The position numbers and the translations under genes were made by a program. The notes below the pieces were generated by a model that saw only the letters and a list, made by a program, of their open reading frames with translations, ran no database searches and was not told where the DNA came from. Shown in pieces: positions 21,656 to 61,169 of a DNA stretch of 64,000 nt. The first letter of the stretch is position 1, and every line of letters begins with the position of its first letter. This stretch comes from a virus. The DNA is taken from the IMG/VR virus record IMGVR_UViG_3300045988_177552, positions 98,231 to 162,230 of that record, one strand, 5' to 3'.

Positions 21656-22811
21656 ACTTAGCTATCTCAATCTCCTTAGGATCACCGATATGCTTTCCTT
21701 CATCATCGCTAATTTTGATAGTTTTCTCCCAAGGATCTTTAGCGCTCATCCTGACACGGCTAAGTTTCATCACGATATTGGCAGGCTTATAACCCTCAAT
21801 ATCAGGATCACAAGTAAGGTTAGTTCCTATACCAGCGGATACCTGAATTCTATTTCCAAAGTAGTCTCTAATAGTCTTATACTTCGGAAAATCAAGAGCA
21901 TTGGAGAATACCAAGAGCTTTGTCTTTGGATCTATTCCGAACTCCTCCAATCTCTCGATAATCATATTACCAATCTTGAAATTATCACCAGAATCAATCC
22001 TATAGCCCTGGAGAAGAAGTGCTTGTTGTCTTGTGAGGGTCCTAAGGAAAGACTTTGTTCCAAACAAGTCTGTCAAGGCTGTTCCCAAGTCTCCCTTATA
22101 GACATCAATCCAGGCTTCCAACATGAGATAGTTCGCCCTCTTATTGCCAAACATACCAGCATGGGCCTGAATCCACTCATGAGGGAATGTGCCAATAGGA
22201 GTCATGTCATACTTCATTGCATAGTACATATTAGACGTACCAGTGCAATAGATCGGACATCTCTCTTTGAGTCTTCTCACAACCTCATCCTGTACTAATG
22301 AGCTGAAACGCCTCCTTGTTCCAAACTCACTAAACTTAAGCTGGTACTCATTAGCGAAGTCAATCTTCTTGTCCAGCTTCCTTATAATATCTTGGATGTT
22401 AGCTTTCACACCAAGTCTAGCATTTCTCAACTCACTGACCGTATAGAGAACAAGGATCTCATACCAAGTCACCTTATAGAGACGGTCTGTAACTTCAATC
22501 TTCAATTCACCCGTCTCAGTCAAAGAAACTTGTATCCTCTTCGGCTCAAATCTGAATGTCTTAAGCCACTCCCAATACGGAAGGTCAATATACTTAATTC
22601 TCTTACTAACAAACTCAAATTCTTTGTCAGTCAATTTCAACATACCAGCCTTAGCGAATTCCAAGTTGAGAGCTTCTACAAATTTTTCATCGTAAGTCTC
22701 ATGGTTACGATCGTAGAATGTAAATGTTCCTTCTGCTAATGGATATAATTTCCAATAAGCAAATGATGTACTCGCTTTGTACAAATCAGTGTCTAAAATA
22801 CTTTGTATCAT
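21624..22811 (-). CDS. pncB: nicotinate phosphoribosyltransferase
   Basis: LDTDLYK, FGTRRRFS, GTSN, HEW, LVFSNALD, GIGTNLTCD blocks align with E. coli PncB. Confidence 0.8.
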   Translation of the reverse strand: MIQSILDTDLYKASTSFAYWKLYPLAEGTFTFYDRNHETYDEKFVEALNLEFAKAGMLKLTDKEFEFVSKRIKYIDLPYWEWLKTFRFEPKRIQVSLTETGELKIEVTDRLYKVTWYEILVLYTVSELRNARLGVKANIQDIIRKLDKKIDFANEYQLKFSEFGTRRRFSSLVQDEVVRRLKERCPIYCTGTSNMYYAMKYDMTPIGTFPHEWIQAHAGMFGNKRANYLMLEAWIDVYKGDLGTALTDLFGTKSFLRTLTRQQALLLQGYRIDSGDNFKIGNMIIERLEEFGIDPKTKLLVFSNALDFPKYKTIRDYFGNRIQVSAGIGTNLTCDPDIEGYKPANIVMKLSRVRMSAKDPWEKTIKISDDEGKHIGDPKEIEIAKYELHLDEDVA

Positions 22812-23632: not shown

Positions 23633-24463
23633 CTAATTGCTAGTCGCCCACTCCTTGACTTCTTTGAGATATCCTGGAGTGAGTTCGATTATGTTAACGT
23701 GTTCCATATCACTTAACCTGTTGATTAAGATAGGGTTATGAATTACGGCAATTATCTGAGTATCTGGTCTATTCGTCTTAAGCACCCCTAGGAGGTCCTT
23801 TGAATATTTTATACTAAGATTTCTATCAGGTTCATCAAGAAGTATTGTTACTCTATTCTCTGTTTTCTCTGACCCTGGTAGATCATGTTTCTCGTAATAC
23901 TCTACAAGACTCTGGAACCTCTTACTCCAAACATCATTGCTTTCCTTTATGGCCTTCTTTATTCTCTCCAGAGGAAATTCTTTGGGAGCCTCTTTTCCGA
24001 ACATGAATTTGAAGAGAACACTAATAGAGTTTATCGTGGATTCTCCCGTTGAACCATTCATTCCGTTCATCTTAAGTTGAAAATTATGTATACTGTCAGC
24101 GAATTCGTAGTCGTTTATATCTGCCGACATCCTTAAGTTGAACGTTGGAAGTAAATAATCAGAGAATACATCAACTCCATCATTAAACCTGTCATCCTCT
24201 CCTCCCAATACATAGTCATCCCAGAATAGTCTTTTCAAGTGAAGTGTATCATTTCCTCCAGTCTTAAACTCTGAGCATAGATTCTTATCACACAACGTAT
24301 AAGAAGCTAGTAATTTCATTAGAGTTGATTTTCCAGAACCATTTTCTCCAATCACAATATTAACATGTGGCGTAAAATTAAACTCTTCACCACCTTTAAA
24401 TACTTTGTTACACCATGATATCGGCGTACTCTCAATATCTTTAATAATTACTTTTGTTATCAT
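23633..24463 (-). CDS. ABC/AAA_21-like ATPase
   Basis: Walker A GENGSGKST, Walker B ILLDEPD, H-loop IHNP. Confidence 0.5.
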   Translation of the reverse strand: MITKVIIKDIESTPISWCNKVFKGGEEFNFTPHVNIVIGENGSGKSTLMKLLASYTLCDKNLCSEFKTGGNDTLHLKRLFWDDYVLGGEDDRFNDGVDVFSDYLLPTFNLRMSADINDYEFADSIHNFQLKMNGMNGSTGESTINSISVLFKFMFGKEAPKEFPLERIKKAIKESNDVWSKRFQSLVEYYEKHDLPGSEKTENRVTILLDEPDRNLSIKYSKDLLGVLKTNRPDTQIIAVIHNPILINRLSDMEHVNIIELTPGYLKEVKEWATSN

Positions 24464-24673
24464 ACATTAATAAGAGTTTCCTGGGGACGAAAAAAAAAAA
24501 TCGGAGGAATGATCAAGGCTAAATTCACCTACCTTAATCACCCTCCTTTAATAATGCCTCTGTCATGGGATTATCGACATCAGCGCTCCAACCTGAGTTT
24601 ACCCGGGATGGGAACTCAAATTAATTCCTCATCAATAAGGACTTGAAGCCTTCCGGAGCGCGTTTTCTCCACA

Positions 24674-31024: not shown

Positions 31025-31127
31025 AAATTAATAAATAATTGTTTGTTGTTAAACATAAATTTTTGTTAAATTCTCATTGAGGGCTACATATCATTAACAC
31101 AAAAATCAGATCATGCCCTCTTCTCTA

Positions 31128-31172
31128 CATTATTAAGATTTTGCCGGCTTCTGGAGTGCGTTTTCTCCATGG
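31128..31172 (-). promoter_or_regulatory. two-part promoter-like motif (full form) about 115 nt upstream of abundant gene 29720..31024
   Basis: cattattaagattttgccggcttctggagtgcgttttctcc; same composite at 48957..48997. Confidence 0.45.
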
Positions 31173-31238: not shown

Positions 31239-32771
31239 ATGATTACTTACATTATTTGTGGTGTAGTAGCAGTGCTATTAGTAGTGTTAATCTCAAGTAG
31301 TTATGTCAAAGCTCCTCCCTCATTTGCCTTTGTAATCTCTGGTCTCAATAAAGAGCCTAGGGTACTCATTGGCAAGGGCGGATTCCGAGTTCCTGGATTG
31401 GAGCGCCTGGACAAAGTGTATCTTGGCCAAATCACAGTTGACGTTGATACCGAAGGAAGTGTTCCTACAAACGATTTCCTCGATGTCATTGTATCATCTG
31501 TCGCTAAGATACGTGTAGTCCAGACTCCGGAAGGTATTAGGTTGGCTGCTAAGAACTTCCTCAACATGACATCTGAAAAGATCTCTGAGCAAGTTAGAGC
31601 AACTCTCCAAGGTAACCTCCGTGAAATCATTGGAACTATGGACCTCAAATCTCTTAACATCAACAGAGAGGGATTCAGTCAGGCAGTTACGAAGAGTGCA
31701 ACACCAGACATGGACAAACTTGGTATTGAGATTCTTAGCTTCAATATCCAGAACATCAGTGATAAGGACGGCTTGATTCGTGATCTCGGTGCTGACAATA
31801 CTGCTAGCATCAGGAAGGCAGCCGCTATCAATAAGGCTAATGCTACACGTGATATCAAGATTCAAGAGGCAATCGCTGAACGTGAAGCAAACGAGGCCCG
31901 TGTTGAAGCTGATACTGCCATCGCTGAGAAGAATAATGAGCTTGAGCTGAAAAAAGCGGCCTTGAAGAAACAGTCTGATGCAGCAAAGGCAGAGGCTGAT
32001 GCAGCTTATGAGATTCAGAAGCAGATCCAGCAGAAGACTATCAACATCTCAAAATCAGAAGCTGAGATTGAATTGAAGAAGCAGCAACAGATCATCTCTA
32101 ATGAATCAATCAAGATTAAGGAGAATGAACTTACTGCAACAGTCAACAAACAGGCTGAAGCAGACAAGTACAAGACTCAGGTTAATGCAGAGGCTGAGCT
32201 GGAACAAAGAAAGAGAAAGGCTGAAGCTGAGCGTTATGAAAAGGAACAACAGGCTGCTGCTAGGAATGCAGAGGCTGACGCTATAAGGTACGCTCAGGAA
32301 CAGAAAGCTCTTGGTATTAAGGCAGAAGGTGAAGCTGAAGCCGCTGCCATAGAAGCTAAGGGTAAGGCAGAAGCAGCAGCAATTGAAGCTAAGGCAAAAG
32401 CTGAGGCCGCTGGTATGAAAGAAAAAGCAGAAGCATTCAAGCAGTACAATGATGCTGCTGTAACTCAAATGCTTATCGATAAACTTCCTGAGGTTGCCAA
32501 TTCTGTCTCAAGTGCTATCGCTGGCATCAAGGGTATCAATATCTACAGTGCCGGAGGTGGCGATGGCGAAGGAGCTATCGGTTCAGTATCAGGCAATGTT
32601 CCTGTAGTGATCAAGCAGGTTTTTGACACTATGGAGAGCGTTACTGGAGTTCCTATGGCTGAACTCGTCAAGGCTCATACAATCGAGGCTAAGACAACCA
32701 GGAAGATTCAGGTTGATGATGCCCTGGCTGAAGTAGCTGATGAAATACTTGAAAGCGCTAAGAAAAAGTAG
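31239..32771 (+). CDS. SPFH/band-7 flotillin-like protein
   Basis: N-terminal TM helix, SPFH core, long EA-rich coiled coil (AEAAAIEAKGKAEAAA repeats); elevated GC. Confidence 0.7.
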   Translation: MITYIICGVVAVLLVVLISSSYVKAPPSFAFVISGLNKEPRVLIGKGGFRVPGLERLDKVYLGQITVDVDTEGSVPTNDFLDVIVSSVAKIRVVQTPEGIRLAAKNFLNMTSEKISEQVRATLQGNLREIIGTMDLKSLNINREGFSQAVTKSATPDMDKLGIEILSFNIQNISDKDGLIRDLGADNTASIRKAAAINKANATRDIKIQEAIAEREANEARVEADTAIAEKNNELELKKAALKKQSDAAKAEADAAYEIQKQIQQKTINISKSEAEIELKKQQQIISNESIKIKENELTATVNKQAEADKYKTQVNAEAELEQRKRKAEAERYEKEQQAAARNAEADAIRYAQEQKALGIKAEGEAEAAAIEAKGKAEAAAIEAKAKAEAAGMKEKAEAFKQYNDAAVTQMLIDKLPEVANSVSSAIAGIKGINIYSAGGGDGEGAIGSVSGNVPVVIKQVFDTMESVTGVPMAELVKAHTIEAKTTRKIQVDDALAEVADEILESAKKK

Positions 32772-32889: not shown

Positions 32890-34764
32890 ATGAATGGAAG
32901 GTACGAAGACATTAATCAAATTGATTTGGTATTAAGTATGTTTAATCAATACCTATTCCAGGATTGTAAGAATAATATTGATGACTTGATATATTCTTAT
33001 CAGACTAATATGGCAACAAACGGCAATAGACTGGTAGAGTTACTCTTGGATTCAATAAAAAATTACACCCTGGATAATATTGGTTTACCATTATTTCAAA
33101 GCATCCTGGGGAGGTGTGGAAAAACTGGGCCTGAGAGTCAACAGATCATCAATAAGATCATAGAGTATAAGATGTACACTAAGGATCAGATTGAACCAAT
33201 GAAGAAATACGTTAAGGATATGATTGCTAAGACGTATATTCTCAGAGCTAATGATCGCTATAGTGATTCCCCTAGTGATTTCATAAACTACCTTAAGGGT
33301 GTAAACTTTAAATCTTCGGCTGTTGATTACTTGACATCTACGAAATTTGGAGATATAGATGTAAATTCAATCAAGGCGGAAGAACAAAACCAAGGAATTC
33401 CATCTTCTTTTGAGTGGATTAATCAAACTTTCCGCCCTGAATGTATGTATCCAAGGATGGGATTGTTCTGTGTTTCAATGCCTCCTGGTTGTATGGCAGG
33501 AGATACTGAGGTCTTTCTTGCAGATGGGACAGTAAAAACTCTGGAGGATCTCTATAAAAGCAAAAAGACAAATATTACGATCTATGCATGTGATGGAAAT
33601 GATCCAAAGGTTTCAGTAGCAGAGAATTGTCAGATCTCTAAGTACGTGAATTCCTGGTATGTAGTTGAGATTGATGGAAAGAAGGAATATAGGGTTACTG
33701 AAAACCACCCATTCCTAATGATAAACGGAGAATGGAAGAGGGCAGATAAGCTTGTTGAAGGTGATATTCTAATGACATTTAACTATAAGTCAGTAAATGA
33801 AAAAGTGATTCACACAATCACTAAGGTATATGTTGAGACCTTAAAGGAACCACAGCCAGTATATGACTTAGTAAATGTCGATCTCTATCATAATTATGCA
33901 GTAAAGTTCGACGAAACATCTGGATTCTTTAGCCACAACACTGGTAAGACCCTTTTCTGTATGCAAGAGTGTCTTTATATGTGCTTGAAAGGAAAGAAAT
34001 GTCATTATCTCTGTATGGGTGATATGACAGAATCCGACTTTATCATTCGTATGGCAGCTCAATATTTTGGAATCCCATTCTATGAGGCTAAAAGAAACTT
34101 CGATATCGTCTATGAAGAACTAAAGAAAGTCATAGGGGACAGACTTGAGATTACTTGTATTCCTGCCAGTGTTATTACAGTGGATGAATATATTGAATTT
34201 GTTAAGAGTAAGGACTATGATGTCTGTTTCTGTGATTATGATAGTCAGTTTAAATCTAATGTCTATACAGAATCAATGTACCTAACTTACGGTGATATCT
34301 ATGCTAAATTGAGTGAGCTTACGATACAGTATAAAAAACTAGTATTCATCTTAGCTCAGCCTATGAAAGCGTCTTGGTCTCTCCCTGTTATTGAAATTGA
34401 TCAGGTAGGTGAGAGTGCTAGGAAGATTCATGCCGTAGACTGGTGTTTGACAAGGGGACGTGAGCCTGGAAACTTGAATGGCTTGGGAATTTCTAAGATA
34501 GTTAAATCTAGACGTGGAGAGGAACAAGTTATAGATTACAATATTAGGCTGAACAACGGTAGATTTAAAAGTCTTCCTAGGGCAGTCTATGAGGATATCA
34601 AGCAGATTCCAGAAAAGAAAGACTATACAGAAGCTGAGATTGACAATATGATAAATAATTACCTTCAAGCTAGAGGACAGGTTCAGCAATCTATCAATAA
34701 TAAAATGGGAAATTCAGGAATAAACAATTCAGGACCTAATAGGAGAGGCGCGGCACCATTTTAA
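32890..34764 (+). CDS. RecA-fold replicative helicase (DnaB-like), intein-containing
   Basis: Extein junction restores PPG|TGKT Walker A; downstream VCFCDYDSQ resembles DnaB Walker B/DYLQ block. Confidence 0.55.
   Translation: MNGRYEDINQIDLVLSMFNQYLFQDCKNNIDDLIYSYQTNMATNGNRLVELLLDSIKNYTLDNIGLPLFQSILGRCGKTGPESQQIINKIIEYKMYTKDQIEPMKKYVKDMIAKTYILRANDRYSDSPSDFINYLKGVNFKSSAVDYLTSTKFGDIDVNSIKAEEQNQGIPSSFEWINQTFRPECMYPRMGLFCVSMPPGCMAGDTEVFLADGTVKTLEDLYKSKKTNITIYACDGNDPKVSVAENCQISKYVNSWYVVEIDGKKEYRVTENHPFLMINGEWKRADKLVEGDILMTFNYKSVNEKVIHTITKVYVETLKEPQPVYDLVNVDLYHNYAVKFDETSGFFSHNTGKTLFCMQECLYMCLKGKKCHYLCMGDMTESDFIIRMAAQYFGIPFYEAKRNFDIVYEELKKVIGDRLEITCIPASVITVDEYIEFVKSKDYDVCFCDYDSQFKSNVYTESMYLTYGDIYAKLSELTIQYKKLVFILAQPMKASWSLPVIEIDQVGESARKIHAVDWCLTRGREPGNLNGLGISKIVKSRRGEEQVIDYNIRLNNGRFKSLPRAVYEDIKQIPEKKDYTEAEIDNMINNYLQARGQVQQSINNKMGNSGINNSGPNRRGAAPF
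33490..33939 (+). other. mini-intein (150 aa, no endonuclease domain) inserted in helicase P-loop
   Basis: Block A CMAGDTEV, block B TENHPF, blocks F/G VYDLVNVDLYHNYAV...SGFFSHN followed by extein T. Confidence 0.7.
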
Positions 34765-38533: not shown

Positions 38534-38944
38534 TTATAATCCTTCTCTATTAATTTTACTCAAATCGATAACTAGTGGTTCTCCTGTTATGGCGTAAACT
38601 AAGAGCTGAAGTTGATGAAGATATTCAAAATCTCCAGACCCTATAGTACAATGATCCTCACTATCGAAGTGAACCGACCATGAACGCCCAACAGAATTAC
38701 TCCATTCATCAGTTAATTCGAGGTAATACTTTCCACCTAAGCAAGCCTCATGACGTTTAATCCCAAGAATCTTGTCATGTACTTCCTTAAACCCGATGGA
38801 CCTTAAGACCTCCTTCGTTACAGGAATAGGCTTAAGATTCTCCACCTTAATCGTCTCTTCATTCACAGTTCTGGTTTTGGGGTCATAGTCTCTTATAACT
38901 ATTCCTCCTTGCCAGACTGATCCTATAAAATAATCCTGTTCCAT
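38534..38944 (-). CDS. hypothetical protein
   Basis: 136 aa. Confidence 0.35.
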   Translation of the reverse strand: MEQDYFIGSVWQGGIVIRDYDPKTRTVNEETIKVENLKPIPVTKEVLRSIGFKEVHDKILGIKRHEACLGGKYYLELTDEWSNSVGRSWSVHFDSEDHCTIGSGDFEYLHQLQLLVYAITGEPLVIDLSKINREGL

Positions 38945-39561
38945 TATTTCTCAAACTTAATCACCTCATTAACCTTTTCGCCAACAGTATCTTTATTGAT
39001 TCCTGGCATCCTAACTAGTTCTTCAAAACATGAGCATTCCAAGACGGTCTTCTTAAAATCCGTATCACCATCCTTACAAGCTTCGTAGAGTTCATCCCAG
39101 ACTGGATTAGTTTCCCAGTCATTAGTCCAAATCTCAATCTTAATTCTCTCACTGACAGGCTCCAAGTATCCTTTCATAAGATCCATGACTTGATACTCAG
39201 GGAGGCCTCCATTATTACATCCCAACAGAGGGAAAGCAACTTCCTTGAGACCTTGTGCCTTGTATTGAGAACAGAACTTATTAAGGCCAGATTCGATATC
39301 CCTAATATCTGACTTACTTCTCCAGTCTCTTTTAGTAGGGAAATTCAGTACGTCCCATCGATTGGTATTCTGATATAACCAGAGAGTTCCAATCCGCAAT
39401 GCTCCAGTACTACAATACTCTTTATACTGCTGGAACATCTTGGGGAACATCATTTTATGTACTAATGCTAATCCTGCTCCCATAACGCCAACAGTATTAA
39501 CGGTGTTTACAATTGTCTTACACCTAGTGTTAAAAATACTTCCAGTTTTGTACTCGATCAT
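38944..39561 (-). CDS. macro-domain (ADP-ribose binding/processing) protein
   Basis: GSIFNTRCKTIVNTVNTVGVMGAGLAL resembles macro-domain N-terminal and Gly-rich blocks. Confidence 0.5.
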   Translation of the reverse strand: MIEYKTGSIFNTRCKTIVNTVNTVGVMGAGLALVHKMMFPKMFQQYKEYCSTGALRIGTLWLYQNTNRWDVLNFPTKRDWRSKSDIRDIESGLNKFCSQYKAQGLKEVAFPLLGCNNGGLPEYQVMDLMKGYLEPVSERIKIEIWTNDWETNPVWDELYEACKDGDTDFKKTVLECSCFEELVRMPGINKDTVGEKVNEVIKFEK

Positions 39562-41406: not shown

Positions 41407-42459
41407 TTAATTCGTCTCCGCTGATCCTGAAGCCTTCATAATAAGATCCTCAGTAATCAACAGGTAGGAGATACTATTATAATATTCACTACTATCGTTC
41501 GGAGTTATAATAAAGCTGAGAGGGAAATGTTTCTCAATCTCCTTGCAGAATGTCTCGTCCCCTAGGAGTTTCTTGAAAAGATATGCTCCACCTCCAAGCA
41601 TGACAAGATTATTGGCAGCATCAAGGAACTCTCCATATCTCTCTTCAATTAAGTTCAAGACATTAACGAAATATCTCTTAGTAAACTGATTAACTACCTC
41701 TGAGAGATTAACTTCACGTCCCCTACGCCTGAGAATTCCAGTATCTACAACGGTCTGAGCTTCCTTAATTGAAATTCTATACTCGAAATTCTTGTAGATA
41801 TAATCTGACATATCTCTAGCGATTACGATAATTCCTGTGTCGGGAAGTCCTATCGTAGCACCAACAGAAGACTTCCTATTAATCACAGAACAAAGATCAA
41901 CGGTGAGATAACCAATGTCTGCGATTACATAGGAGTCGAAATCATTAACCTTCGTTGCATTAGCTGCATTTTCCCTAATATTTGCTCCAAACTTCTGAAG
42001 TGTATACCTACTTGACATAGCCTGAGGAAGACATACGAAGAACTGAGAATCTGGAGAAATCATCAAGGCGTCGTATAAGGTCTGAAGGAGTAGATCTGCT
42101 TTCTTAACAAATGCAAAACTAAGTCCAATAGCTACCTTATCAAACTTTATATGTTCCAACTTCTTCAACATATAACTAACCCAAGCAGGATAAACAGCCA
42201 ACATATCCTCGAATGTCTCTAGGGGAAGGAGATAACTACGGGCCGTCCTAAGAGCAGAAGGACCGAGGAGGAACCAGTCTGCACCAAGTCTGAAAGTCTC
42301 ATCATTATCTGCTGTTGTTGGAGGTTCTGGAAGTTTGGCAGCAGCTGAAATAATCTTATCGCTAACCATCTTTCCATTCTCATCAATGTAAGTATACTTT
42401 AGTGCTGAATAACCAAGATCCAGCGCTAGAATTTTAGCTCTTTTTTCCATAACGTTCAA
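41407..42459 (-). CDS. actin-like ATPase (ParM/Alp family)
   Basis: phosphate-1 ILALDLGYSALK, phosphate-2 IADIGYLTVDL, adenosine LMLGGGAYLF. Confidence 0.6.
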   Translation of the reverse strand: MNVMEKRAKILALDLGYSALKYTYIDENGKMVSDKIISAAAKLPEPPTTADNDETFRLGADWFLLGPSALRTARSYLLPLETFEDMLAVYPAWVSYMLKKLEHIKFDKVAIGLSFAFVKKADLLLQTLYDALMISPDSQFFVCLPQAMSSRYTLQKFGANIRENAANATKVNDFDSYVIADIGYLTVDLCSVINRKSSVGATIGLPDTGIIVIARDMSDYIYKNFEYRISIKEAQTVVDTGILRRRGREVNLSEVVNQFTKRYFVNVLNLIEERYGEFLDAANNLVMLGGGAYLFKKLLGDETFCKEIEKHFPLSFIITPNDSSEYYNSISYLLITEDLIMKASGSAETN

Positions 42460-47016: not shown

Positions 47017-48642
47017 TTATTCCTCTTTAGTAGCAACCTTTGGCTCACAGGTAATCGTACAGTCAATAAGCAAGATCATTGAGGCTGCACTGATACTATT
47101 CTCCAAGCTTACACGAAGGGCCTTTGATGAATCCAAGACACCTGACTCAATAAGATCCTCGAACTTCTTTGTCTTAGCATTGAATCCATAACCAGGCCTA
47201 TTCTCCTTGGATGCTATATCAAGTACAACATCCCCTGAGACTCCAGAATTCTCAGCAATAGTCTTCATGATGATGGGGAGTGATTTCTGAACAATCTTTA
47301 TACCCTCTTTCTCATCCTCCGTACAACCTTCCCAAAGCGTCTTATCAAGATCCATAGACTTTGAAGCTTGGTAGAAGATATAACCACCACCAGGAGCACA
47401 TCCCTCTTCAATAGCGGCCCTAGCAGCAAGGATAGCATCTTCAATCGTAGCTTTCCTATTCGCTGTCTCTGCCTCTGATGCACCACCAGCCTTAATTACA
47501 GCTATACCACCAGTCAAGTTGGCAACTCTCTTCTCAAACTTCGTCTTATCATAATCTGAAGTCTGAGGGTCAACAAGTCGCTTCTTGAGAATTTCAGCCC
47601 TCTCATTGATTTCGCTCGGATTTCCTGCACCCTCATAGATGATACAAGAATCCCTTCCAACAACGACCTTCCTAGCCTGACCAAGATCTGACAGGGAAGC
47701 TTGGATAACTGAAACTCCATTTTCCTGACAAATATGAGTACCCCCAACTACAATAGAAATATCCTCCATTGTATTCTTCCTGTTGTCTCCATAATCGATA
47801 CCCTTCACTACACAGCACCGAATAGCACCACGTAGGGTATTGAAAACGAACATCGCATTGACAGTCTCATCCATGTCATCACAGATAATAAGGAGAGGAC
47901 GACCTTGTGAATTTCCCTGATAATCCTCCAAGAGATTCATAAGTTGAGCAACAGATGAAATTCTCTCTGAGGCAACCAGGATATAAGGATTCTCAAGAAC
48001 ACACTTTCCTTCCTCCGGTGATGTGACATATTGAGGACTAGCCCATCCACGATCCAGTTTCATACCGGTCGTGATGTCAATGGTTGTATCAAGTCCTGCA
48101 CTTCCTTCAGCGGTGACAAGAGAATTAATGCCTACCTCCTTGAAAGCCTGCATAACCAAGTTTCCAACCTCAGGATCATTGTTCGCTGAAATAGTAGCAA
48201 CCTTCCTGATTTTCTCAAGATCAGAACCAACCTCGATACTGTTAGCCTTGATATACTCGGTCATCCACTTTCCAGCTTTCAACATACCTGACTTGAGTTC
48301 ATTGACATTAGCTCCAACACTGACCGCCTTCTGTCCTTTCTTACAGAACTCCCTGATTAAGAGAGATGTAGAGGAAGTTGCATCACCAGCCTTATCCTCA
48401 GTCATTGATGCTGCCTTCTTAACAAGCTCTGCACCAATATTTTCCTCTGGATCACTGAATTTGACGGACTTTGCAATAGTGGCTCCATCTCTTGTAATCT
48501 GGACACCAAAACCATCATCCTCAATGGCAATACCCCTACCTGCAGGACCCATAGAAAGCTTAATCGCATCTACAATTTTGTCTACACCAGCAATAACCTT
48601 AGCCTGTGTAGAATCACCAAGCTTAATTACCTTGTTTTCCAT
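47017..48642 (-). CDS. groL: chaperonin GroEL (Cpn60)
   Basis: 541 aa; GPAGRG-type N-terminal block, ATP-binding segments, typical length; directly downstream of groES. Confidence 0.85.
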   Translation of the reverse strand: MENKVIKLGDSTQAKVIAGVDKIVDAIKLSMGPAGRGIAIEDDGFGVQITRDGATIAKSVKFSDPEENIGAELVKKAASMTEDKAGDATSSTSLLIREFCKKGQKAVSVGANVNELKSGMLKAGKWMTEYIKANSIEVGSDLEKIRKVATISANNDPEVGNLVMQAFKEVGINSLVTAEGSAGLDTTIDITTGMKLDRGWASPQYVTSPEEGKCVLENPYILVASERISSVAQLMNLLEDYQGNSQGRPLLIICDDMDETVNAMFVFNTLRGAIRCCVVKGIDYGDNRKNTMEDISIVVGGTHICQENGVSVIQASLSDLGQARKVVVGRDSCIIYEGAGNPSEINERAEILKKRLVDPQTSDYDKTKFEKRVANLTGGIAVIKAGGASEAETANRKATIEDAILAARAAIEEGCAPGGGYIFYQASKSMDLDKTLWEGCTEDEKEGIKIVQKSLPIIMKTIAENSGVSGDVVLDIASKENRPGYGFNAKTKKFEDLIESGVLDSSKALRVSLENSISAASMILLIDCTITCEPKVATKEE

Positions 48643-54828: not shown

Positions 54829-55371
54829 CTAACCTTCTTTTTTAGTCTCCTTATCGAGTAATCTTAAGAGTTCTGGGAGTCTATACTGTCCCTTCATTCT
54901 TTTAACCAATCGTAAGGCCTCCTCATTACTCAAGCCACCTCCACCTTGTATCCATAGTGGCGTACTTCCTTTTGGTCCCCTGGTATAACCTAAGGCCTCT
55001 CCATAGATAAGGCCTGTTCCACCAAAGTCCTTCTTAGCCACTCCGATAAGACAAGGATTCCACGGCTTGATACGCCTTAAGAGCATATCACCGAGACCCT
55101 CCCTAAGCTCTCCAGTTTCCTTATCGTGAATCCTTAAGAACCCGTCTAAGATTATGTATGTTATCCTCTCTTCCTTCCCCTGAATTTTCTCAAGGAGGTC
55201 AAGAATAGGAGGAAGTTCTCTAAGGTAAAACTTTCCTGGAATATAAGGACCGAATTGATCAGTCCAAGAGGTTATAATTTCCTCAGGCACCAAGTCAATC
55301 CAGTCCTTAAACAATATCCCTACCGTCTTAGCTTTATCGCTCAGGTAGTAAGTGTCGATAGCGAGAATCAC
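54829..55371 (-). CDS. nfi: endonuclease V (deoxyinosine 3' endonuclease)
   Basis: collinear with E. coli Nfi: YIPGKFYLRELPPILDLL, ILDGFLRIH, LIGVAKK, MKGQYRLPELLRLLD. Confidence 0.7.
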   Translation of the reverse strand: MILAIDTYYLSDKAKTVGILFKDWIDLVPEEIITSWTDQFGPYIPGKFYLRELPPILDLLEKIQGKEERITYIILDGFLRIHDKETGELREGLGDMLLRRIKPWNPCLIGVAKKDFGGTGLIYGEALGYTRGPKGSTPLWIQGGGGLSNEEALRLVKRMKGQYRLPELLRLLDKETKKEG

Positions 55372-55744: not shown

Positions 55745-56326
55745 TTAGTATTTCCAGATCTTATGCAACCTACAGCCAAGGAGATTTCCCAAGACTTCAG
55801 CTATCCAGATTAATTCAACTTCACCATTGCCGGTCATACTCATAAAATAGAATGAATCTGCTATGCTATGTGTAAATCCAGCCATGATGAAGAGTGGAAT
55901 GCCTAAGAGTATTGGTAAGACCCTCTTGGATTCTCTATAGTGTTCAACAGCTGTAGTCATGATTATACCACATCCTATTGCTAAGAGAAAACAGTCGATT
56001 ATCCCATGCTGTATTCTTCCTTCTGTTATAGTCCTGGCTCCTTCCACTACTTCTGGCATGGCAATTATACACACTAGGAATGAGATCAGTGTTCCCAAGA
56101 TATTACCTCCCAGGATTATACCGAGTCTCTTCCAGGATTCCAATGACTTATGATCAAAGAATCCCGCTGTTCCTGTATATAGCCCTAATCCATAGTAGCA
56201 AACACTAATCAGGCCAAAGGAGAATAATACGGCTCCTATGATACCTCCGACTTTAATGTTTACTATGCAGCCTAAGGAAATGAATATTCCAGCTCCAATC
56301 GATTCCCTTAAAGTCTTACTTATCAT
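55745..56326 (-). CDS. integral membrane protein (possible small-molecule transporter)
   Basis: 193 aa, 5-6 hydrophobic helices. Confidence 0.4.
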   Translation of the reverse strand: MISKTLRESIGAGIFISLGCIVNIKVGGIIGAVLFSFGLISVCYYGLGLYTGTAGFFDHKSLESWKRLGIILGGNILGTLISFLVCIIAMPEVVEGARTITEGRIQHGIIDCFLLAIGCGIIMTTAVEHYRESKRVLPILLGIPLFIMAGFTHSIADSFYFMSMTGNGEVELIWIAEVLGNLLGCRLHKIWKY

Positions 56327-57557: not shown

Positions 57558-57615
57558 CTACATACATAAGGAAATAAGGGCGGGAAATTCAGAAGCCGGC
57601 AAAATCTTAATAATG
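57558..57615. promoter_or_regulatory. divergent promoter region: minus-type motif for 57134..57514 and plus-oriented motif for the leader/57838 gene
   Basis: catacataaggaaataaggg (minus gene) adjacent to ttcagaagccggcaaaatcttaataatg (plus orientation). Confidence 0.4.
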
Positions 57616-57716
57616 TAAGATGAATGTATTTAAAAAAGTATTATTAATGATGAAAAAGAGCGTTGATGTATTGAAAATTAATATGTCAAATGAGCGTTCA
57701 TCAGAGAGATACTACG

Positions 57717-57772
57717 ATCTATGTGGTGAGGAATTTGCTGGCTCACTTTGGGGTTCGAATCCCCGACATAGA
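57717..57772 (+). ncRNA. tRNA-like element lacking anticodon arm
   Basis: 7-bp acceptor stem TCTATGT/ACATAGA, D-arm-like TGAG..CTCA with GG loop, canonical T-arm TGGGG-TTCGAAT-CCCCG, discriminator G; no CCA. Confidence 0.3.
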
Positions 57773-57837
57773 GCTATTGCCTTAGAATCCACAGTCAACT
57801 CTAAGGTGATGTTTCAACTTAAAACTAGTTTTAAAAT

Positions 57838-58896
57838 ATGAACAAGATCGTAGTTTACACATCAAATCTTGATGTAAATCCCAAAAACATGGGAGACGTC
57901 ATCGAGTTCGCAAAAAGAACACCGAAGTTCTACATTGCGTCTGTAGGGGCTAGTGAAACACTTGCCAATGTGAAACCAGGAGACCAGATTATTACTAAGA
58001 AGGGCAATTCCCTCTATGTAATTCGTGCGTTCGACAAAGACCTGGAGAATCTCTCTGACGAAGACCGTAACTATCTCGCCGAAATCAAGGGTGCGTACGG
58101 TGCTCGTAATATGAATATCACCAGTGTAGGTCAGATTATCAAGTTTGAGACCTGGTGCAAATCAGCAAAACCATTCATCAATTTAAAATCAGAAACAAAA
58201 ATGAAGAATTCAATCAGTGGCCTCAGTGCCCGTCTTAAGGAGCTCTATACTCCTACTGAAGCAAAGGATGTACGTGTAACCGCTCAGGGTGACATCTGTG
58301 TAGAAACAAAGAACGGCTTCGTAGCTATCGACGCCAATGGTAAGCTCAACTCATACGTAGAGGAGCTCACTGTGAAGCTGCCTTGCTACATCATGTCAAA
58401 GCCCGCTAATGCTCTCCAGCCTGGTGATATTCTCGCCCTGGATAAGAGCTACGCAAAGGTTACTGAAGTGAAGGGTGACAAGATCTCTGCTATCGGCTAT
58501 ACCGGTGCAGTCAAGACCATCCGCACTATCAACGACGTCCTGTTCAACCAGACCATGGTACGCGTTGTCGTATCTCTCGCTGGCAATCTCGGCGGTGGTG
58601 CACTCAACCCTCTTATGTTGATGCTCCTCAGCGACGACGAAGAGAAGTCTAGCAAGAAGGACCTCCTGCCTCTGCTCATGATGAGCCAGAACGGTGGTGC
58701 ACTTCAGGCTAATCCCCTGATGATGCTCGCCCTCACAAAGGACGGTGAAGGATCTTCTATGAAGGACCTCCTGATGCTCAGCGCTATGTCTAGTAATGGC
58801 ATGAACCTTTTTGCTGGTCTCGGTGCTCAGCCTGCCGCTCCTGCAACTAACGCAACTGGTGCAGCACAGGCAGCTGATCCTAAGGCCGCTGAATAA
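57838..58896 (+). CDS. abundant hypothetical protein with C-terminal Met/Leu-rich triple repeat
   Basis: 352 aa, high GC and codon bias; repeats NPLMLMLLSDDEEKSSKKDLL / LMMSQ.. / LMMLALTKDGEGSSMKDLL; long 5' leader. Confidence 0.45.
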   Translation: MNKIVVYTSNLDVNPKNMGDVIEFAKRTPKFYIASVGASETLANVKPGDQIITKKGNSLYVIRAFDKDLENLSDEDRNYLAEIKGAYGARNMNITSVGQIIKFETWCKSAKPFINLKSETKMKNSISGLSARLKELYTPTEAKDVRVTAQGDICVETKNGFVAIDANGKLNSYVEELTVKLPCYIMSKPANALQPGDILALDKSYAKVTEVKGDKISAIGYTGAVKTIRTINDVLFNQTMVRVVVSLAGNLGGGALNPLMLMLLSDDEEKSSKKDLLPLLMMSQNGGALQANPLMMLALTKDGEGSSMKDLLMLSAMSSNGMNLFAGLGAQPAAPATNATGAAQAADPKAAE

Positions 58897-58967
58897 ATAA
58901 TAAATGGAGCTACTTTACTGTGGGAGTAGTTCCATTCTTTTTGTTAATATCAAACTTTTTAGCATAG

Positions 58968-59795
58968 ATGGAAAATTTTTCATGTGGGATATTAAGTTTA
59001 TGCACAATGTATAAATGTGATTTTGATGGACATTCCATTGATCACTTTTCAGATTGTGAGTCAGCCGCTTGTTTTGGCGGTTATACTGGGCTTCTCAGGA
59101 AAGAAAAATACAGGCCACAGGAGAAACTTGATGTAACTCTGGATATCAAAATAAGAACGTTCGATCACTTCCTTGAGGATCATAAGGGAAAGAATAACTT
59201 TTGCCTCTTAGGGAAGAAAGATATTGAGGAGCATTTCGCTTATCTCAGTGAAACCTATTGTATCGATTGTTCTGTTCAGGTTTTCGGAGACGATTGGAAG
59301 GAGCTCGAAGATGATAAGTTGCCTGAGGAGAATTATTACCTCAAGCTTCATCTCAACGCTACTCCAGGACAGCAGGTATTTGCCCTGACTTGGTGTAGAC
59401 ATCTTTACGAGTTTCCGTTCAATATGTTCCTCCTTGATGCACTTCGTCTTAAGAAGGAGTTTGGGGAATTCAGGAACGAACACCTAGCCAATATCATCCA
59501 AGTAGTCGGATCTTCTTTTGCTAAGGTCTCATACTATAGAGGTGATCAGTGTCTGTGTGAGCCTCAGAAAGAGTTGATAACAGAGGATAGACTCTGTAAA
59601 CACTTGACTTCTCACAAGACGATAACAAGTGCTTGGAATTCACTGTCGGAAGAAAAGCGACAGGCAATTAAGCCGCTCCTTTCTAATGAGGATACTTTGA
59701 AGAAGTCAACCTACTGGCTCGATCCTCAGACTTTTGACGAGAGGAAGAATATCTATCTCCAGAACTATATGTCAATTTATAATTTTATAGGATGA
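58968..59795 (+). CDS. hypothetical protein, paralog A1 of duplicated module
   Basis: 275 aa; paralogous to 60375..61169 (LTWCRHLYEFPFNMFLLDALRLKKEF vs LTWIRYIYEYPYNLILMDSRRLKKG). Confidence 0.4.
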   Translation: MENFSCGILSLCTMYKCDFDGHSIDHFSDCESAACFGGYTGLLRKEKYRPQEKLDVTLDIKIRTFDHFLEDHKGKNNFCLLGKKDIEEHFAYLSETYCIDCSVQVFGDDWKELEDDKLPEENYYLKLHLNATPGQQVFALTWCRHLYEFPFNMFLLDALRLKKEFGEFRNEHLANIIQVVGSSFAKVSYYRGDQCLCEPQKELITEDRLCKHLTSHKTITSAWNSLSEEKRQAIKPLLSNEDTLKKSTYWLDPQTFDERKNIYLQNYMSIYNFIG

Positions 59796-60430
59796 AAGAA
59801 AAAGCGATAAAAGTTTATGTAGTGGGTCCGTCTACAGGTTATTCTGGATTTATTGAGAATAAGGTACTTGTAGATAAGATGGAGGAGGCTCAAGTTGTAT
59901 TGTTTACTGGCGGAGAAGATATCAATCCCCGTCTCTATAACAAGGCTCCACATCACTCAGTCTATTATACGGACCGTCGTGATAAGATGGAAGTAGCTGC
60001 CTTTGAGAAAATAAGGCCGGGACAGATTGCCGTAGGTATATGTAGGGGCGCTCAATTATTCTGTGCTTTGTATGGTGGTATCTTAGTTCAGGACTGTGAC
60101 CGTCATTGGGGTCATGGCAAGCATACAATTACGAATGGAACTCAGGAATTTACTGTTACCTCCATTCACCACCAGATGCAATACCCTTATGACCTGCCTA
60201 ATGAGGATTATGAGGTCTTATTCTGGTCAGAGGGGAGAAGCTCCTACTATGAAGGCGATGGTGTTGACCCAAAGAAGATAAAGGAATTCGGAGAGCCTGA
60301 GGTTACTGTTTTCCATCGTGAAGGTATGCCGTTGTGTTTCGGAATTCAAGGACACCCCGAGATGATGGATAGAAATGATCCGTTCGTTAAGTGGGTTAAT
60401 GAGAAAATCCATGAATACGTTGAAGGATGA
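59792..60430 (+). CDS. class-I glutamine amidotransferase-like / C26 gamma-glutamyl hydrolase-like protein (copy 1)
   Basis: nucleophile elbow GICRGAQLF, IQGHPE His-Glu motif. Confidence 0.6.
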   Translation: MKEKAIKVYVVGPSTGYSGFIENKVLVDKMEEAQVVLFTGGEDINPRLYNKAPHHSVYYTDRRDKMEVAAFEKIRPGQIAVGICRGAQLFCALYGGILVQDCDRHWGHGKHTITNGTQEFTVTSIHHQMQYPYDLPNEDYEVLFWSEGRSSYYEGDGVDPKKIKEFGEPEVTVFHREGMPLCFGIQGHPEMMDRNDPFVKWVNEKIHEYVEG

Positions 60431-61169
60431 AATTACTGGGAGAACCTCTTATTATACCTGTTATAGGAACGGTAACGATAAGATTAAGAGGGGACAAGGA
60501 TGTTTCAGCTCTATCTTCTATAAGGGCAAATTAGATGATATCTCTAGTAGGACGTATCATGTCTATGCCTTTATCGGATTTGGTTGTACAGTAAGTAATA
60601 ACTGTTTCATGACCAAAGAGGAAGTGGAGGAACACCTGGGATACCTCAATGATATTGTTCCCCTAGAGCGTTATTCAGTTAAAGAGACAAAGTTTCCTTA
60701 TCCTGGTACAAAAGGAATTCCAGCTTTTGATATATCCATAAAGCTTAAGAATCAGAGGAGAATAAAACATAAGTATGCCTTGACTTGGATAAGGTATATC
60801 TATGAATATCCTTACAATCTTATTCTCATGGATTCAAGGAGGCTGAAAAAGGGATTGCTTCAGGATGAAACGATGATTAATCTCTTTACTCTCGTTGTTA
60901 GATGTTTTAAGTGTAGTAAATATATGTATGGCGCAGGTCATGCAATGCCATTACCGGCTTCATCTGGTTTCATTTCAGATGTAGATGTTATCAAGAAATT
61001 GGATGGCACACTGAAACTTAATTCAATCTTCCCAACGACTTCAGTGAAGGTACCAACATTGCCGGGAGGCTCAGAAACCAAGTTCTTAGAATATTGGGCG
61101 GCAAATGAGTACTTTGATCAGAGAGCCAAGATTTATATGGAAGCATATAAAAAACTAAAAGGACAATGA
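60375..61169 (+). CDS. hypothetical protein, paralog A2
   Basis: 264 aa, paralog of 58968..59795. Confidence 0.4.
   Translation: MIRSLSGLMRKSMNTLKDEITGRTSYYTCYRNGNDKIKRGQGCFSSIFYKGKLDDISSRTYHVYAFIGFGCTVSNNCFMTKEEVEEHLGYLNDIVPLERYSVKETKFPYPGTKGIPAFDISIKLKNQRRIKHKYALTWIRYIYEYPYNLILMDSRRLKKGLLQDETMINLFTLVVRCFKCSKYMYGAGHAMPLPASSGFISDVDVIKKLDGTLKLNSIFPTTSVKVPTLPGGSETKFLEYWAANEYFDQRAKIYMEAYKKLKGQ

What the first reader, a model, noticed from the sequence alone, without database searches (positions are those of the whole stretch)
57620..57841. tRNA-like element lacking an anticodon arm inside the 5' leader of a highly expressed gene
57717..57772 folds as a perfect 7-bp acceptor stem (TCTATGT/ACATAGA), a D-arm-like hairpin with a GG loop, a 3-nt connector and a canonical T-arm (TGGGG TTCGAAT CCCCG) plus discriminator G. 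There is no anticodon stem and no encoded CCA. It lies downstream of a plus-oriented strong promoter motif and upstream of 57838..58896. The overlapping 73-aa ORF may be spurious. It could be a processing signal (RNase P/Z substrate), a regulatory tRNA mimic or a decayed tRNA or att remnant.
Basis: seen in the sequence. Interest (0 to 1): 0.5.

Follow-up and report, generated by a model that had tools for sequence, protein, structure and literature searches.

The report
tRNA top-half mimic in phage mRNA leader
A jumbo gut phage keeps a shrunken tRNA (acceptor stem, T-arm and elbow, no anticodon arm) in the translated leader of a conserved gene, probably as a cutting signal for the host's tRNA-processing enzymes, and the same mRNA has complementary hairpin loops at its two ends.

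Summary

One sequence alone is weak evidence: a comparable motif turns up in about 9% of shuffled windows. Comparison with relatives decides it. Homologous jumbo-phage loci keep the same architecture with 10 of 12 helix pairs covarying, 99% of cells paired, and G·U pairs only on the + strand. ARAGORN and Rfam call nothing, so it is not a tRNA, tmRNA or mascRNA.

Two relatives carry a full tRNA (Thr, Met) at this position, so the element looks like a reduced tRNA.

The overlapping 73-codon ORF is not spurious. Its frame stays open in nearly all bearers, but the peptide is not conserved.

Just downstream lies a hairpin with an invariant CCACAG loop. That loop is complementary to the CUGUGG loop of the gene's own terminator in all 17 lineages that have the hairpin.

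Best reading (inferred, untested): an RNase P/RNase Z processing signal like plant-mitochondrial t-elements, which sets the 5' end of an mRNA closed by a kissing-loop contact.

The parts
57590..57619 (+). Promoter-like motif CAGAAGCCGGCAAAATCTTAATAATGTAAG, ending just before the ATG of the leader ORF.
   Evidence: The 19-mer occurs 3 times in the window against 0.08 expected. A 28-nt nearly identical copy lies at 31114-31142(-). At 24461-24479(-) the ATG of a real ATPase gene follows within 2 nt. The same motif stands upstream in most related loci. Its likeness to the Bacteroidota -7 box TAnnTTTG is from my own knowledge. No transcription start site has been mapped.
57620..57841 (+). Leader ORF of 73 codons whose stop overlaps the main start (ATGA). 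It contains the tRNA-like element and the 5' hairpin.
   Evidence: The frame is open in all tested bearers of the element, with 5-11 stops in the other frames. Indels are in frame. The peptide is not conserved: against L123, 5 of 5 substitutions are nonsynonymous, while the main ORF has 11 of 12 at codon position 3. The frame is broken in L051 and the ATG is lost in L016. No Pfam or PHROG hit.
57711..57720 (+). Segment ACTACGATCT just 5' of, and overlapping, the acceptor stem. It is complementary to codons 3-6 of the main ORF (57845-57854, AGATCGTAGT).
   Evidence: Predicted in the fold of the whole leader. Position-anchored shuffle test: p = 0.005 in the window, 13 bp with p = 0.0006 in the L002 family, 8 bp with p = 0.12 in L001, absent in L041. 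Tentative.
57718..57773 (+). tRNA-like element: 7-bp acceptor stem, D-like hairpin (5 bp, 11-nt loop with GG), 5-bp T stem with loop TTCGAAT, discriminator G. No anticodon arm, no encoded CCA.
   Evidence: Sequence. Fold of the isolated element. Covariation. Double compensatory changes against L040 and between L041 and L051. ARAGORN and Rfam negative. It is the only such motif in the window on either strand.
57775..57811 (+). 5' hairpin: arms TATTGCCTTAGA and TCTAAGGTGATG (core CCTTAGA/TCTAAGG, 57780-86 and 57800-06), loop 57787-57799 holding the invariant CCACAG (57789-57794). It starts 1 nt after the nucleotide that follows the discriminator.
   Evidence: On 11 lineages, 98% of cells are paired, all 5 pairs change on both sides and the loop CCACAG is invariant. 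The hairpin lies 26-38 nt before the ATG.
57821..57832 (+). A/T-rich perfect palindrome AAAACTAGTTTT just before the main start codon.
   Evidence: Sequence. Conserved in L040, L041 and L051. L001 and L002 carry a different palindrome, ATTAACGTTAAT, at the same place. Role unknown.
57838..58896 (+). Main gene, 352 aa, function unknown. Beta-rich N-terminal part and a Met-rich, low-confidence C-terminal tail.
   Evidence: At least 343 homologues, none with a Pfam domain. No Pfam or PHROG hit. AlphaFold2 pLDDT is roughly 65-88 over about residues 1-220 apart from a dip to 37-41 at about 110-130, and low after about 220. Foldseek finds only uncharacterised phage proteins such as Bacillus phage G gp39 and nothing in the PDB. 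Under strong purifying selection.
58903..58944 (+). Intrinsic terminator of the main gene: stem 58903-58915 / 58924-58936, loop TACTGTGG, then a T run. The loop CTGTGG (58918-58923) is complementary to the CCACAG loop of the 5' hairpin.
   Evidence: Terminator scan. Loop content. CTGTGG sits in the terminator loop in all 17 lineages with the 5' CCACAG hairpin and in none of the 5 without it. A seventh pair covaries: U·G, U-A, A-U, C-G.

Best explanation
The element is a reduced tRNA. It keeps only the 'top half': acceptor stem, T-arm and a GG-containing D-loop that can form the elbow.

SHOWN:
- The structure is maintained by selection in the + strand transcript across several clades of gut and rumen jumbo phages.
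- It always lies upstream of the same 352-aa gene.
- Some relatives have a complete tRNA there.
- It has none of the features needed for decoding.

INFERRED:
- It is kept because it is what RNase P and the tRNA 3'-processing enzyme (RNase Z or equivalent) recognise. This would make it work like a plant-mitochondrial t-element or the mascRNA module of MALAT1.
- RNase P would cut at 57717/57718. That detaches the 5' part of the leader, including a segment that can pair with the start of the main ORF.
- 3' processing after G57773 would leave an mRNA that begins 1-7 nt before a stable hairpin.
- The loop of that hairpin (CCACAG) can kiss the loop of the mRNA's own terminator (CUGUGG). This would close the message and shield both ends, as suits a very abundant transcript.
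- Alternatively only RNase P cuts, and the tRNA-like fold stays attached as a base-paired 5' end.

The leader ORF that runs through the element is kept open but not conserved as a peptide. Ribosomes probably translate through it and reinitiate at the overlapping ATGA, in competition with or ahead of processing. That interplay is unresolved.
For: Real structure:
- 10 of 12 pairs covary and 99% of cells are paired.
- Window versus L040 (main protein 89% identical): the acceptor changes from TCTATGT/ACATAGA to TCTATAC/GTATAGA, which costs amino-acid changes in the ORF.
- L041 versus L051: G1-C72 becomes A1-U72, and the mid hairpin changes from GTGGC/GCCAC to GTGAC/GTCAC, even though the ORF frame is broken in L051.
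- G·U pairs occur only on the + strand.

Elbow features are kept: T-loop TTCGAAT is invariant and GG is present in the spacer in 10 of 11 elements.

tRNA origin and co-transcription: tRNA-Thr(tgt) lies 74 nt and tRNA-Met 61 nt upstream of the orthologous gene in L014 and L018, each followed by the same CCACAG hairpin. In those phages the mRNA must be released by tRNA processing. The L001/L016 elements resemble tRNA-Thr.

Same 3' flank as real tRNAs of these phages: C follows the discriminator in 10 of 10 elements (C-N-A), and in 13 of 15 ARAGORN tRNAs of the related loci (my reading).

The hairpin starts 1-7 nt after the element.

The 5'/3' loop complementarity is conserved in 17 of 17 lineages.

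Functional precedent: t-elements with the GGTTCRANYCC motif direct RNase Z/P cleavage at mRNA ends (PMC1920247).
Against: - There are no RNA-end data, so cleavage is entirely inferred.
- The element lies inside an ORF that selection keeps open. Cutting it would truncate that ORF's mRNA, so processing and translation must be reconciled somehow.
- In L046 a similar anticodon-less element is followed by its own intrinsic terminator and has no hairpin. There it cannot be maturing this mRNA.
- Four hairpin-bearing lineages (L004/6, L015, L017) and L049 manage without any tRNA-like element directly upstream.
- The hairpin abuts the discriminator, and a structured 3' trailer may hinder RNase Z.
- The host and its RNase repertoire are unknown.
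Confidence: 0.5

Rival explanations
1. The element is a cis-acting tRNA mimic that works without being cut. It would be a folded module inside the translated leader that controls translation. It could pause or gate ribosomes on the leader ORF, hold the long-range helix that masks the main ORF start until a ribosome unwinds it, or recruit a tRNA-elbow-binding factor.
For: The leader ORF is kept open and ends in ATGA with the main start, while its peptide evolves freely. That pattern is typical of regulatory leader ORFs. Complementarity between the leader and ORF codons 3-8 is significant in two clades and is predicted in the full-leader fold.
Against: A generic hairpin would serve for pausing or masking. 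It would not explain the invariant T-loop, the GG, the exact 7+5 bp geometry, a tRNA-type 3' flank, or full tRNAs at the same place. The ORF is interrupted in L051 and absent in L046, yet the fold is kept. The long-range helix is absent in L041.
Confidence: 0.2
2. The product is the small RNA itself. A stable tRNA-like RNA of about 56 nt, perhaps CCA-tailed like mascRNA, would be released from the leader and act in trans. It might be a decoy or inhibitor for host enzymes or defences that recognise the tRNA acceptor/T-arm/elbow.
For: L046 has such an element as a stand-alone unit with its own terminator, next to where its relative L050 has ordinary tRNAs. The best, though sub-threshold, Rfam match over the full length is mascRNA (14.9 bits). 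Acceptor-stem sequences vary freely, as expected if only the shape matters.
Against: The L046 element is a single sequence, so its conservation is untested. In all other bearers the element is tied to one gene's leader, immediately before the hairpin, and occurs once per genome region examined. No conserved sequence outside generic tRNA features suggests a specific partner.
Confidence: 0.15
3. The fold has no function: it is a decaying tRNA pseudogene or att remnant, or a chance fold inside a genuine small protein gene.
For: tRNA finders and Rfam call nothing. The single-sequence motif has about a 9% chance expectation per window. An ORF covers it.
Against: Compensatory double substitutions occur in 10 of 12 pairs across clades whose main proteins are only about 50% identical. 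Those substitutions are nonsynonymous in the ORF. The fold is kept where the ORF is broken. The 5' acceptor strand is present, unlike in att sites.
Confidence: 0.04

Closest known systems
Plant mitochondrial t-elements (tRNA-like processing signals at mRNA ends; Forner et al. 2007, PMC1920247)
   Same: Non-canonical, incomplete cloverleaf that keeps the T-arm motif GGTTCRANYCC and an acceptor-like stem. It lies in an mRNA leader. In relatives a genuine tRNA occupies the equivalent place upstream of the gene. No decoding role.
   Different: This one is in a bacteriophage rather than an organelle. Cleavage has not been demonstrated. The element is embedded in a leader ORF that is kept open. It is coupled to a conserved 5' hairpin and terminator loop pair.
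mascRNA / MEN-beta tRNA-like modules (Rfam RF01684)
   Same: Small tRNA-like fold of about 56-61 nt inside a longer transcript, recognised through its acceptor/T-arm. The full-length alignment to the model covers the acceptor and T-arm.
   Different: The score of 14.9 bits is far below the gathering score of 42.5, and there is no homology. mascRNA defines a 3' end of a nuclear lncRNA, whereas here a 5' end of a phage mRNA is proposed.
Bacterial and phage tRNA-mRNA co-transcripts (for example E. coli tufB and metY-nusA operons; from my own knowledge)
   Same: A tRNA transcribed ahead of a highly expressed protein gene and removed by RNase P. L014 and L018 look exactly like this.
   Different: In the window the tRNA has lost its anticodon arm and cannot be a tRNA. 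Only the processing-relevant half is kept.
tmRNA tRNA-like domain
   Same: Acceptor stem plus T-arm plus a D-loop without a proper D stem, and no anticodon. Associated with an ORF.
   Different: In tmRNA the ORF and pseudoknots lie between the D-loop and the T-arm, and the 3' end carries CCA. ARAGORN finds no tmRNA, and Rfam matches only the 15-nt T-arm (8.1 bits).
5'/3'-UTR base-pairing in bacterial mRNAs (B. subtilis hbs, PMC5737220; S. aureus icaR, PMC3868564)
   Same: Complementarity between the leader and the 3' end of the same mRNA, proposed to affect stability or translation.
   Different: Here the contact is a 6-8-bp loop-loop (kissing) contact between a leader hairpin and the terminator hairpin. 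It is conserved across a phage family and is untested experimentally.

Membership tests
Canonical tRNA | Cloverleaf with an anticodon arm and anticodon, detected by tRNA finders or the Rfam tRNA model | tested here: not met
   ARAGORN finds 0 genes in the window and none at the element in the related loci. No Rfam tRNA match even at E <= 10. Only 13-28 nt lie between the acceptor and the T-arm.
Canonical tRNA | 7-bp acceptor stem, 5-bp T stem, T-loop TTCRANN with G53-C61, GG in the D-loop | tested here: met
   T-loop TTCGAAT is invariant. GG is present in 10 of 11 elements.
tmRNA | tRNA-like domain enclosing a tag ORF and pseudoknots; Rfam RF00023 / ARAGORN tmRNA call | tested here: not met
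   ARAGORN finds none. RF00023 matches only 15 nt at 8.1 bits against a gathering score of 47.
mascRNA-menRNA (RF01684) | Score at or above the family's gathering threshold | tested here: not met
   14.9 bits against 42.5.
t-element-type processing signal (functional class) | Incomplete tRNA-like fold with the conserved T-arm motif GGTTCRANYCC and an acceptor stem, located in an mRNA precursor | tested here: met
   GGTTCGAATCC at 57752-57762. The fold is conserved. It lies between a promoter-like motif and the gene. Motif definition taken from PMC1920247.
t-element-type processing signal (functional class) | RNA termini coincide with the ends of the element; cleavage by RNase P and/or RNase Z | not testable with these tools
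   No transcript-end or enzymatic data are available.
Bacterial Y RNA / YrlA tRNA mimic | Ro-binding helix formed by the RNA's ends with the tRNA-like domain capped by a loop; a Rfam family match | tested here: not met
   No Rfam match at E <= 10. The topology is the opposite, with the ends at the acceptor stem. The description of the YrlA architecture is from my own knowledge and PMC4201824 (listed, not read).
Regulatory leader ORF with translational coupling | Reading frame kept open across lineages, stop overlapping or adjacent to the main start, peptide sequence free to vary | tested here: met
   Exceptions: L051 has a frameshift and L016 has lost the ATG.
Regulatory leader ORF with translational coupling | Actual translation of the leader ORF, and dependence of the main ORF on it | not testable with these tools
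   Needs ribosome profiling or reporter fusions.
5'/3'-end interaction within one mRNA | Conserved complementarity between a leader element and a 3'-terminal element, with covariation | tested here: met
   CCACAG and CTGTGG loops co-occur in 17 of 17 lineages and in 0 of 5 without the hairpin. The seventh pair takes four pair types. The six core pairs never vary, so they give no covariation evidence.

The most novel reading that the evidence does not exclude
The tRNA top-half, the translated leader ORF, the segment that masks the main ORF start, and the complementary 5'-hairpin and terminator loops would form one RNA device. A primary transcript whose main cistron is masked or only translationally coupled would be converted by RNase P (and RNase Z) into a message with both ends tucked into a kissing complex. 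This would be the first phage or bacterial example of t-element-driven mRNA maturation combined with a closed-loop mRNA.
Probability: 0.2. Interest if true: 0.8.

Novelty: new variant of a known kind. Interest (0 to 1): 0.6.

Why it matters
tRNA-like processing signals in mRNAs are established for plant mitochondria and a few eukaryotic lncRNAs. In bacteria and phages only whole tRNAs are known to punctuate operons.

This case is a tRNA that has been whittled down to the half that processing enzymes read. It has been kept for a long time, by compensatory evolution, in front of one conserved and probably very abundant jumbo-phage mRNA.

If it is cut, that shows phages recruit host RNase P/Z for mRNA maturation. 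It would also provide a compact, portable processing module for Bacteroidota.

The associated loop-loop complementarity between leader and terminator gives a directly testable case of 5'-3' communication in a prokaryotic message.

The element also illustrates a blind spot: tRNA finders and Rfam miss it completely.

Tried and rejected
- ARAGORN and Rfam (gathering and E <= 10) gave no usable family assignment.
- My first covariance model (R1, built from the L001/L002/L041 types) was over-fitted to sequence. It did not recover the window's own element, even with filters off. I dropped it and used explicit helix parsing instead.
- MAFFT mis-registered the acceptor strands when the variable spacer was included. 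Pair counts were therefore made on helix-only strings with the spacer removed. This is a manual step and is stated as such.
- A pattern scan of IMG/VR for T-arm + C-N-A + CCACAG gave 70 hits. It recovered only the L001/L002 families already known, plus ordinary tRNAs, with no new host genes for the module.
- Searches for a function of the 352-aa protein led nowhere: PHROGs, Pfam, AlphaFold2, and Foldseek against viral structures and the PDB.
- The GenBank phage collection holds no close relative. Only a neighbouring HAD-phosphatase gene matches crAss-like phages, at about 70% identity.
- Ideas considered and dropped:
  - attP or tRNA 3'-half remnant: the 5' strand is present and covaries.
  - Permuted or split tRNA with the CCACAG hairpin as a displaced anticodon arm: full tRNAs in L014 and L018 also have the hairpin, and the loop lacks U33.
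  - YrlA-type Y RNA: opposite topology and no Rfam hit.
  - A DNA-level cruciform: the G·U pairs are strand-specific.
- The unanchored search for leader-ORF helices is not significant, because AT-rich sequence gives 10-bp helices in about 25% of shuffles. Only the position-anchored test is.
Full report
**What is at the coordinates.** On the + strand, 57718-57773 reads:

TCTATGT G GTGAG GAATTTGCTGG CTCAC TT TGGGG TTCGAAT CCCCG ACATAGA G.

This gives a perfect 7-bp acceptor stem, a 5-bp mid hairpin whose 11-nt loop ends in GG, a 2-nt connector, a textbook T-arm and a discriminator G followed by CTA.

ARAGORN finds no tRNA or tmRNA anywhere in the window. Rfam at gathering thresholds finds nothing. 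At E <= 10 only sub-threshold matches appear: mascRNA over the full length at 14.9 bits (gathering 42.5), and the tmRNA model over the 15-nt T-arm only.

Folded alone, the 56-mer adopts exactly the three-way tRNA-like shape (-19.5 kcal/mol, z = -2.5). Within longer flanks, alternative pairings compete.

A motif of this quality turns up in about 9% of shuffled 64-kb windows. The single sequence therefore proves little.

**Comparative evidence.** The downstream gene (57838-58896, 352 aa) has no Pfam or PHROG assignment. It belongs to a large family of at least 343 proteins. Members are found on gut and rumen phage contigs of up to about 350 kb. The window's own leader ORF occurs on contigs of up to 305 kb.

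I fetched the upstream DNA for about 25 distinct lineages. Several lineage groups carry the same architecture at the same place:
- the window with L040 and L123;
- L041 with L051;
- the L001 family;
- the L002/L016/L044 family.

The helix sequences differ between these groups. Examples (L051):
- GCCTTTG...AACGG TTCGAAT CCGTT CAGAGGC
- GTCCTTG...GATAG TTCGAAT CTATC CAGGGGC
- GTCTGTA...GGTAG TTCGAAT CTACC TACAGGC
- ATCTGTA...TACAGGT

I counted pairs on the 12 acceptor and T-stem pairs of 8 distinct elements, using helix-only strings because MAFFT mis-registers the variable spacer. The result:
- 99% of cells are paired.
- 10 of 12 pairs change on both sides.
- 0 of 500 shuffles reach this.
- Slid registers give 19-51% paired.

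The closest relative, L040 (main protein 89% identical), has two double compensatory changes in the acceptor stem and one in the following hairpin.

Many pairs are G·U, which would be A·C mismatches on the other strand. The structure therefore belongs to the + strand RNA.

The T-loop TTCGAAT is invariant. A GG is present in the spacer of 10 of 11 elements, so the tRNA elbow can form.

The spacer is a covarying 5-bp hairpin in the window clade (GTGAG/CTCAC, GTGGC/GCCAC, GTGAC/GTCAC). In the L001/L002 clade it is only 13-16 unpaired nucleotides. In no case is there an anticodon arm.

**Origin.** In L014 and L018 a complete tRNA sits at the equivalent position: Thr-UGU at 74 nt and Met-CAU at 61 nt before the ATG. 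Several other relatives have tRNA arrays a few hundred nucleotides upstream.

The L001/L016 elements align best with tRNA-Thr. L001 still contains CTTGTAA, the Thr-UGU anticodon-loop string, which has mutated in its close relatives.

On a rough NJ tree of the main protein, the reduced element occurs in separate clades and the full-tRNA lineages branch deep. The element is therefore a tRNA reduced to its top half, and it has been retained, not left to decay.

**The overlapping ORF.** In every tested bearer of the element, the frame that ends in the ATGA overlap has 0 stops over 52-74 codons (32 in L016). The other two frames have 5-11 stops (4-5 in L016). P(open) is about 0.001-0.005 per lineage by shuffling (0.06 for L016).

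The distance from the T-loop to the main ATG is always a multiple of 3 (78, 81 or 84). Indels between close relatives are in frame.

The ATG follows directly on a promoter-like motif. That motif recurs in the window, and at 24461(-) it directly precedes the ATG of a real ATPase gene. This suggests leaderless transcripts.

Yet the peptide is not conserved:
- Against L123, the main ORF has 11 of 12 substitutions at third codon positions and one amino-acid change. All 5 substitutions in the leader ORF are nonsynonymous.
- The compensatory changes in the helices change amino acids.
- In L051 a 5-nt shorter spacer breaks the frame while the fold is kept.
- L016 has lost the ATG.

So the frame is selected to stay open, but the product is not. 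This is the signature of a regulatory leader ORF, probably coupled to the main start.

**What lies around it.**

*5' hairpin.* One to seven nucleotides after the element, a hairpin begins (window 57775-57811). Its stem differs in every lineage, and its loop always contains CCACAG, 26-38 nt before the ATG. On 11 lineages, 98% of cells are paired and all 5 pairs covary. This hairpin is more widespread than the tRNA-like element. It also follows the full tRNAs in L014 and L018, and it occurs without any tRNA directly upstream in L004/6, L015, L017 and L049.

*Terminator loop.* The intrinsic terminator right after the main gene's stop codon (58903-58944) has CTGTGG in its loop (58918-58923), the exact complement of CCACAG. 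The same holds in all 17 lineages that have the 5' hairpin. It holds in none of the 5 that lack the hairpin. Those 5 form one clade, so they count as roughly one evolutionary event.

The flanking seventh pair covaries: U·G, U-A, A-U, C-G, with two A/G mismatches. I read this as a 6-8-bp kissing-loop contact between the two ends of the mRNA.

*Long-range helix.* The 10 nt at 57711-57720, immediately 5' of and overlapping the acceptor stem, are complementary to codons 3-6 of the main ORF (57845-57854). An equivalent helix of 13 bp exists in the L002 family. Anchored shuffle tests give p = 0.005 and 0.0006. It is marginal in L001 and L051 and absent in L041. I treat it as tentative.

**Mechanism.**

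Shown: a conserved tRNA top-half, a leader frame that is kept open, and a conserved pair of complementary terminal loops.

Inferred: the top half is kept because it is the part recognised by RNase P and the tRNA 3' endonuclease. This is how t-elements work in plant mitochondria, where the same GGTTCRANYCC motif marks elements whose ends coincide with mRNA termini (PMC1920247).

Points that fit this reading:
- In L014 and L018 the mRNA must in any case be released from a co-transcribed tRNA.
- In all 10 distinct elements the base after the discriminator is C, with the pattern C-N-A. By my reading of the ARAGORN boundaries, 13 of 15 genuine tRNAs in the related loci also have C there, and none encodes CCA.
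- Cleavage would place the mRNA's 5' end next to the hairpin that contacts the terminator. It would also remove the segment that can mask the ORF start.

Points that count against it:
- No RNA-end data are available.
- Processing conflicts with translation of the leader ORF.
- In L046 a similar element has its own terminator.
- Some lineages do without the element.

I put the processing-signal model at about 0.5, an uncleaved cis-regulatory mimic at 0.2, a trans-acting small RNA at 0.15, and a non-functional remnant or chance at under 0.05. The remainder I leave unassigned.

**Comparison with known systems and novelty.** The element fails the membership tests for tRNA, tmRNA, mascRNA and Y RNA. 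Functionally it is closest to t-elements and the mascRNA module, and to bacterial tRNA-mRNA co-transcripts. The loop pair is closest to the hbs and icaR 5'/3'-UTR interactions (PMC5737220, PMC3868564, listed).

My literature searches found no description of an anticodon-less tRNA mimic in a phage mRNA leader. A large screen of phage structured RNAs mentions only generic 'tRNA-like' candidates (PMC10690425).

I rate it a new variant of a known kind, of moderate to high interest. The 5'-3' loop complementarity is arguably the more surprising part.

Noticed in passing
window 57789-57794 and 58918-58923; equivalent sites in L001, L002, L004, L006, L009, L014-L018, L040, L041, L044, L049, L051, L123: The loop of the leader hairpin (CCACAG) is the exact complement of the loop of the gene's own intrinsic terminator (CTGTGG). 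This holds in all 17 lineages with the leader hairpin and in none of the 5 without it. A seventh pair covaries. I predict a 5'-3' kissing-loop contact that closes the mRNA.
   Followed up: partly
window 57711-57720 versus 57845-57854; L002 2880-2892 versus ORF +11..+23: The segment just 5' of the tRNA-like element is complementary to codons 3-8 of the main ORF: 10 bp in the window (p = 0.005) and 13 bp in the L002 family (p = 0.0006). It is weak or absent in L001, L041 and L051. It may mask the initiation region until it is cleaved off or unwound by a ribosome.
   Followed up: partly
window 57590-57619 (+), 31114-31142 (-), 24461-24479 (-): A repeated promoter-like motif (GAAGCCGG-CAAAATCTTA-ATAATGTA) resembles the Bacteroidota -7 box. 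An ATG follows within 2-5 nt at two of the three sites, including the start of a real ATPase gene (23633-24463). This suggests leaderless mRNAs.
   Followed up: partly
window 57821-57832; L001 about 2965-2976; L002 about 2971-2982: A perfect A/T-rich palindrome lies just before the main start codon: AAAACTAGTTTT in the window clade and ATTAACGTTAAT in the L001/L002 clades. The sequences differ but the position is the same. Role unknown.
   Followed up: no
L046 about 1395-1443, then a terminator about 1450-1480: A second kind of anticodon-less tRNA-like element (GGGAGGT CTTAC GACG GTAAG TTTA TTAGG TTCAAT CCTAA GCCTCCC A). It is followed by its own intrinsic terminator and has no leader ORF or CCACAG hairpin. 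Its relative L050 has two ordinary tRNAs and a terminator in the same region. It is a single sequence, so conservation is untested.
   Followed up: partly
L001 2892-2939 and relatives L009-L038: The spacer of the L001-type element contains CTTGTAA, the anticodon-loop string of tRNA-Thr(UGU), without its stem. Close relatives have CTAGTAA or CAAGTAA. This suggests stepwise reduction of a tRNA-Thr.
   Followed up: partly
L049 1258-1332: ARAGORN calls a 'tRNA-Cys' with the unusual anticodon ACA. Its loop TCACAGA resembles the CCACAG loop motif. It is followed by a terminator and a second copy of the promoter-like motif.
   Followed up: no
tRNA-like elements and ARAGORN tRNAs in L003, L014, L022, L043, L047: The nucleotide after the discriminator is C in all 10 distinct tRNA-like elements, with the pattern C-N-A. 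By my reading it is also C in 13 of 15 genuine tRNAs of the related phages. None encodes a full CCA.
   Followed up: partly
window 1-56500: The gene content is typical of a jumbo phage with many host-like functions. These are a ClpB-like AAA+ protein (3726-6470), an FtsH-like AAA/M41 protein (10378-12507), ClpP (18817-19536) and GroEL (47017-48642). Also flotillin/SPFH (31239-32771), NAPRTase (21624-22811) and an SbcCD-like fusion (25073-27835). Also a ParM/MreB-like actin (41407-42459), a macro domain (38944-39561), a truncated formate/nitrite-transporter-like protein (55745-56326) and endonuclease V (54829-55371). One protein carries an intein (32890-34764), followed by an HNH gene.
   Followed up: no
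window 58968-59795 and 60375-61169: Two paralogous genes of unknown function (275 and 264 aa) share motifs such as ALTW..IYE.P.N. They flank a Peptidase_C26/GATase gene (59792-60430). In relatives a COOH-NH2 ligase gene follows, which may indicate a nucleotide or DNA modification cluster next to the main gene.
   Followed up: no
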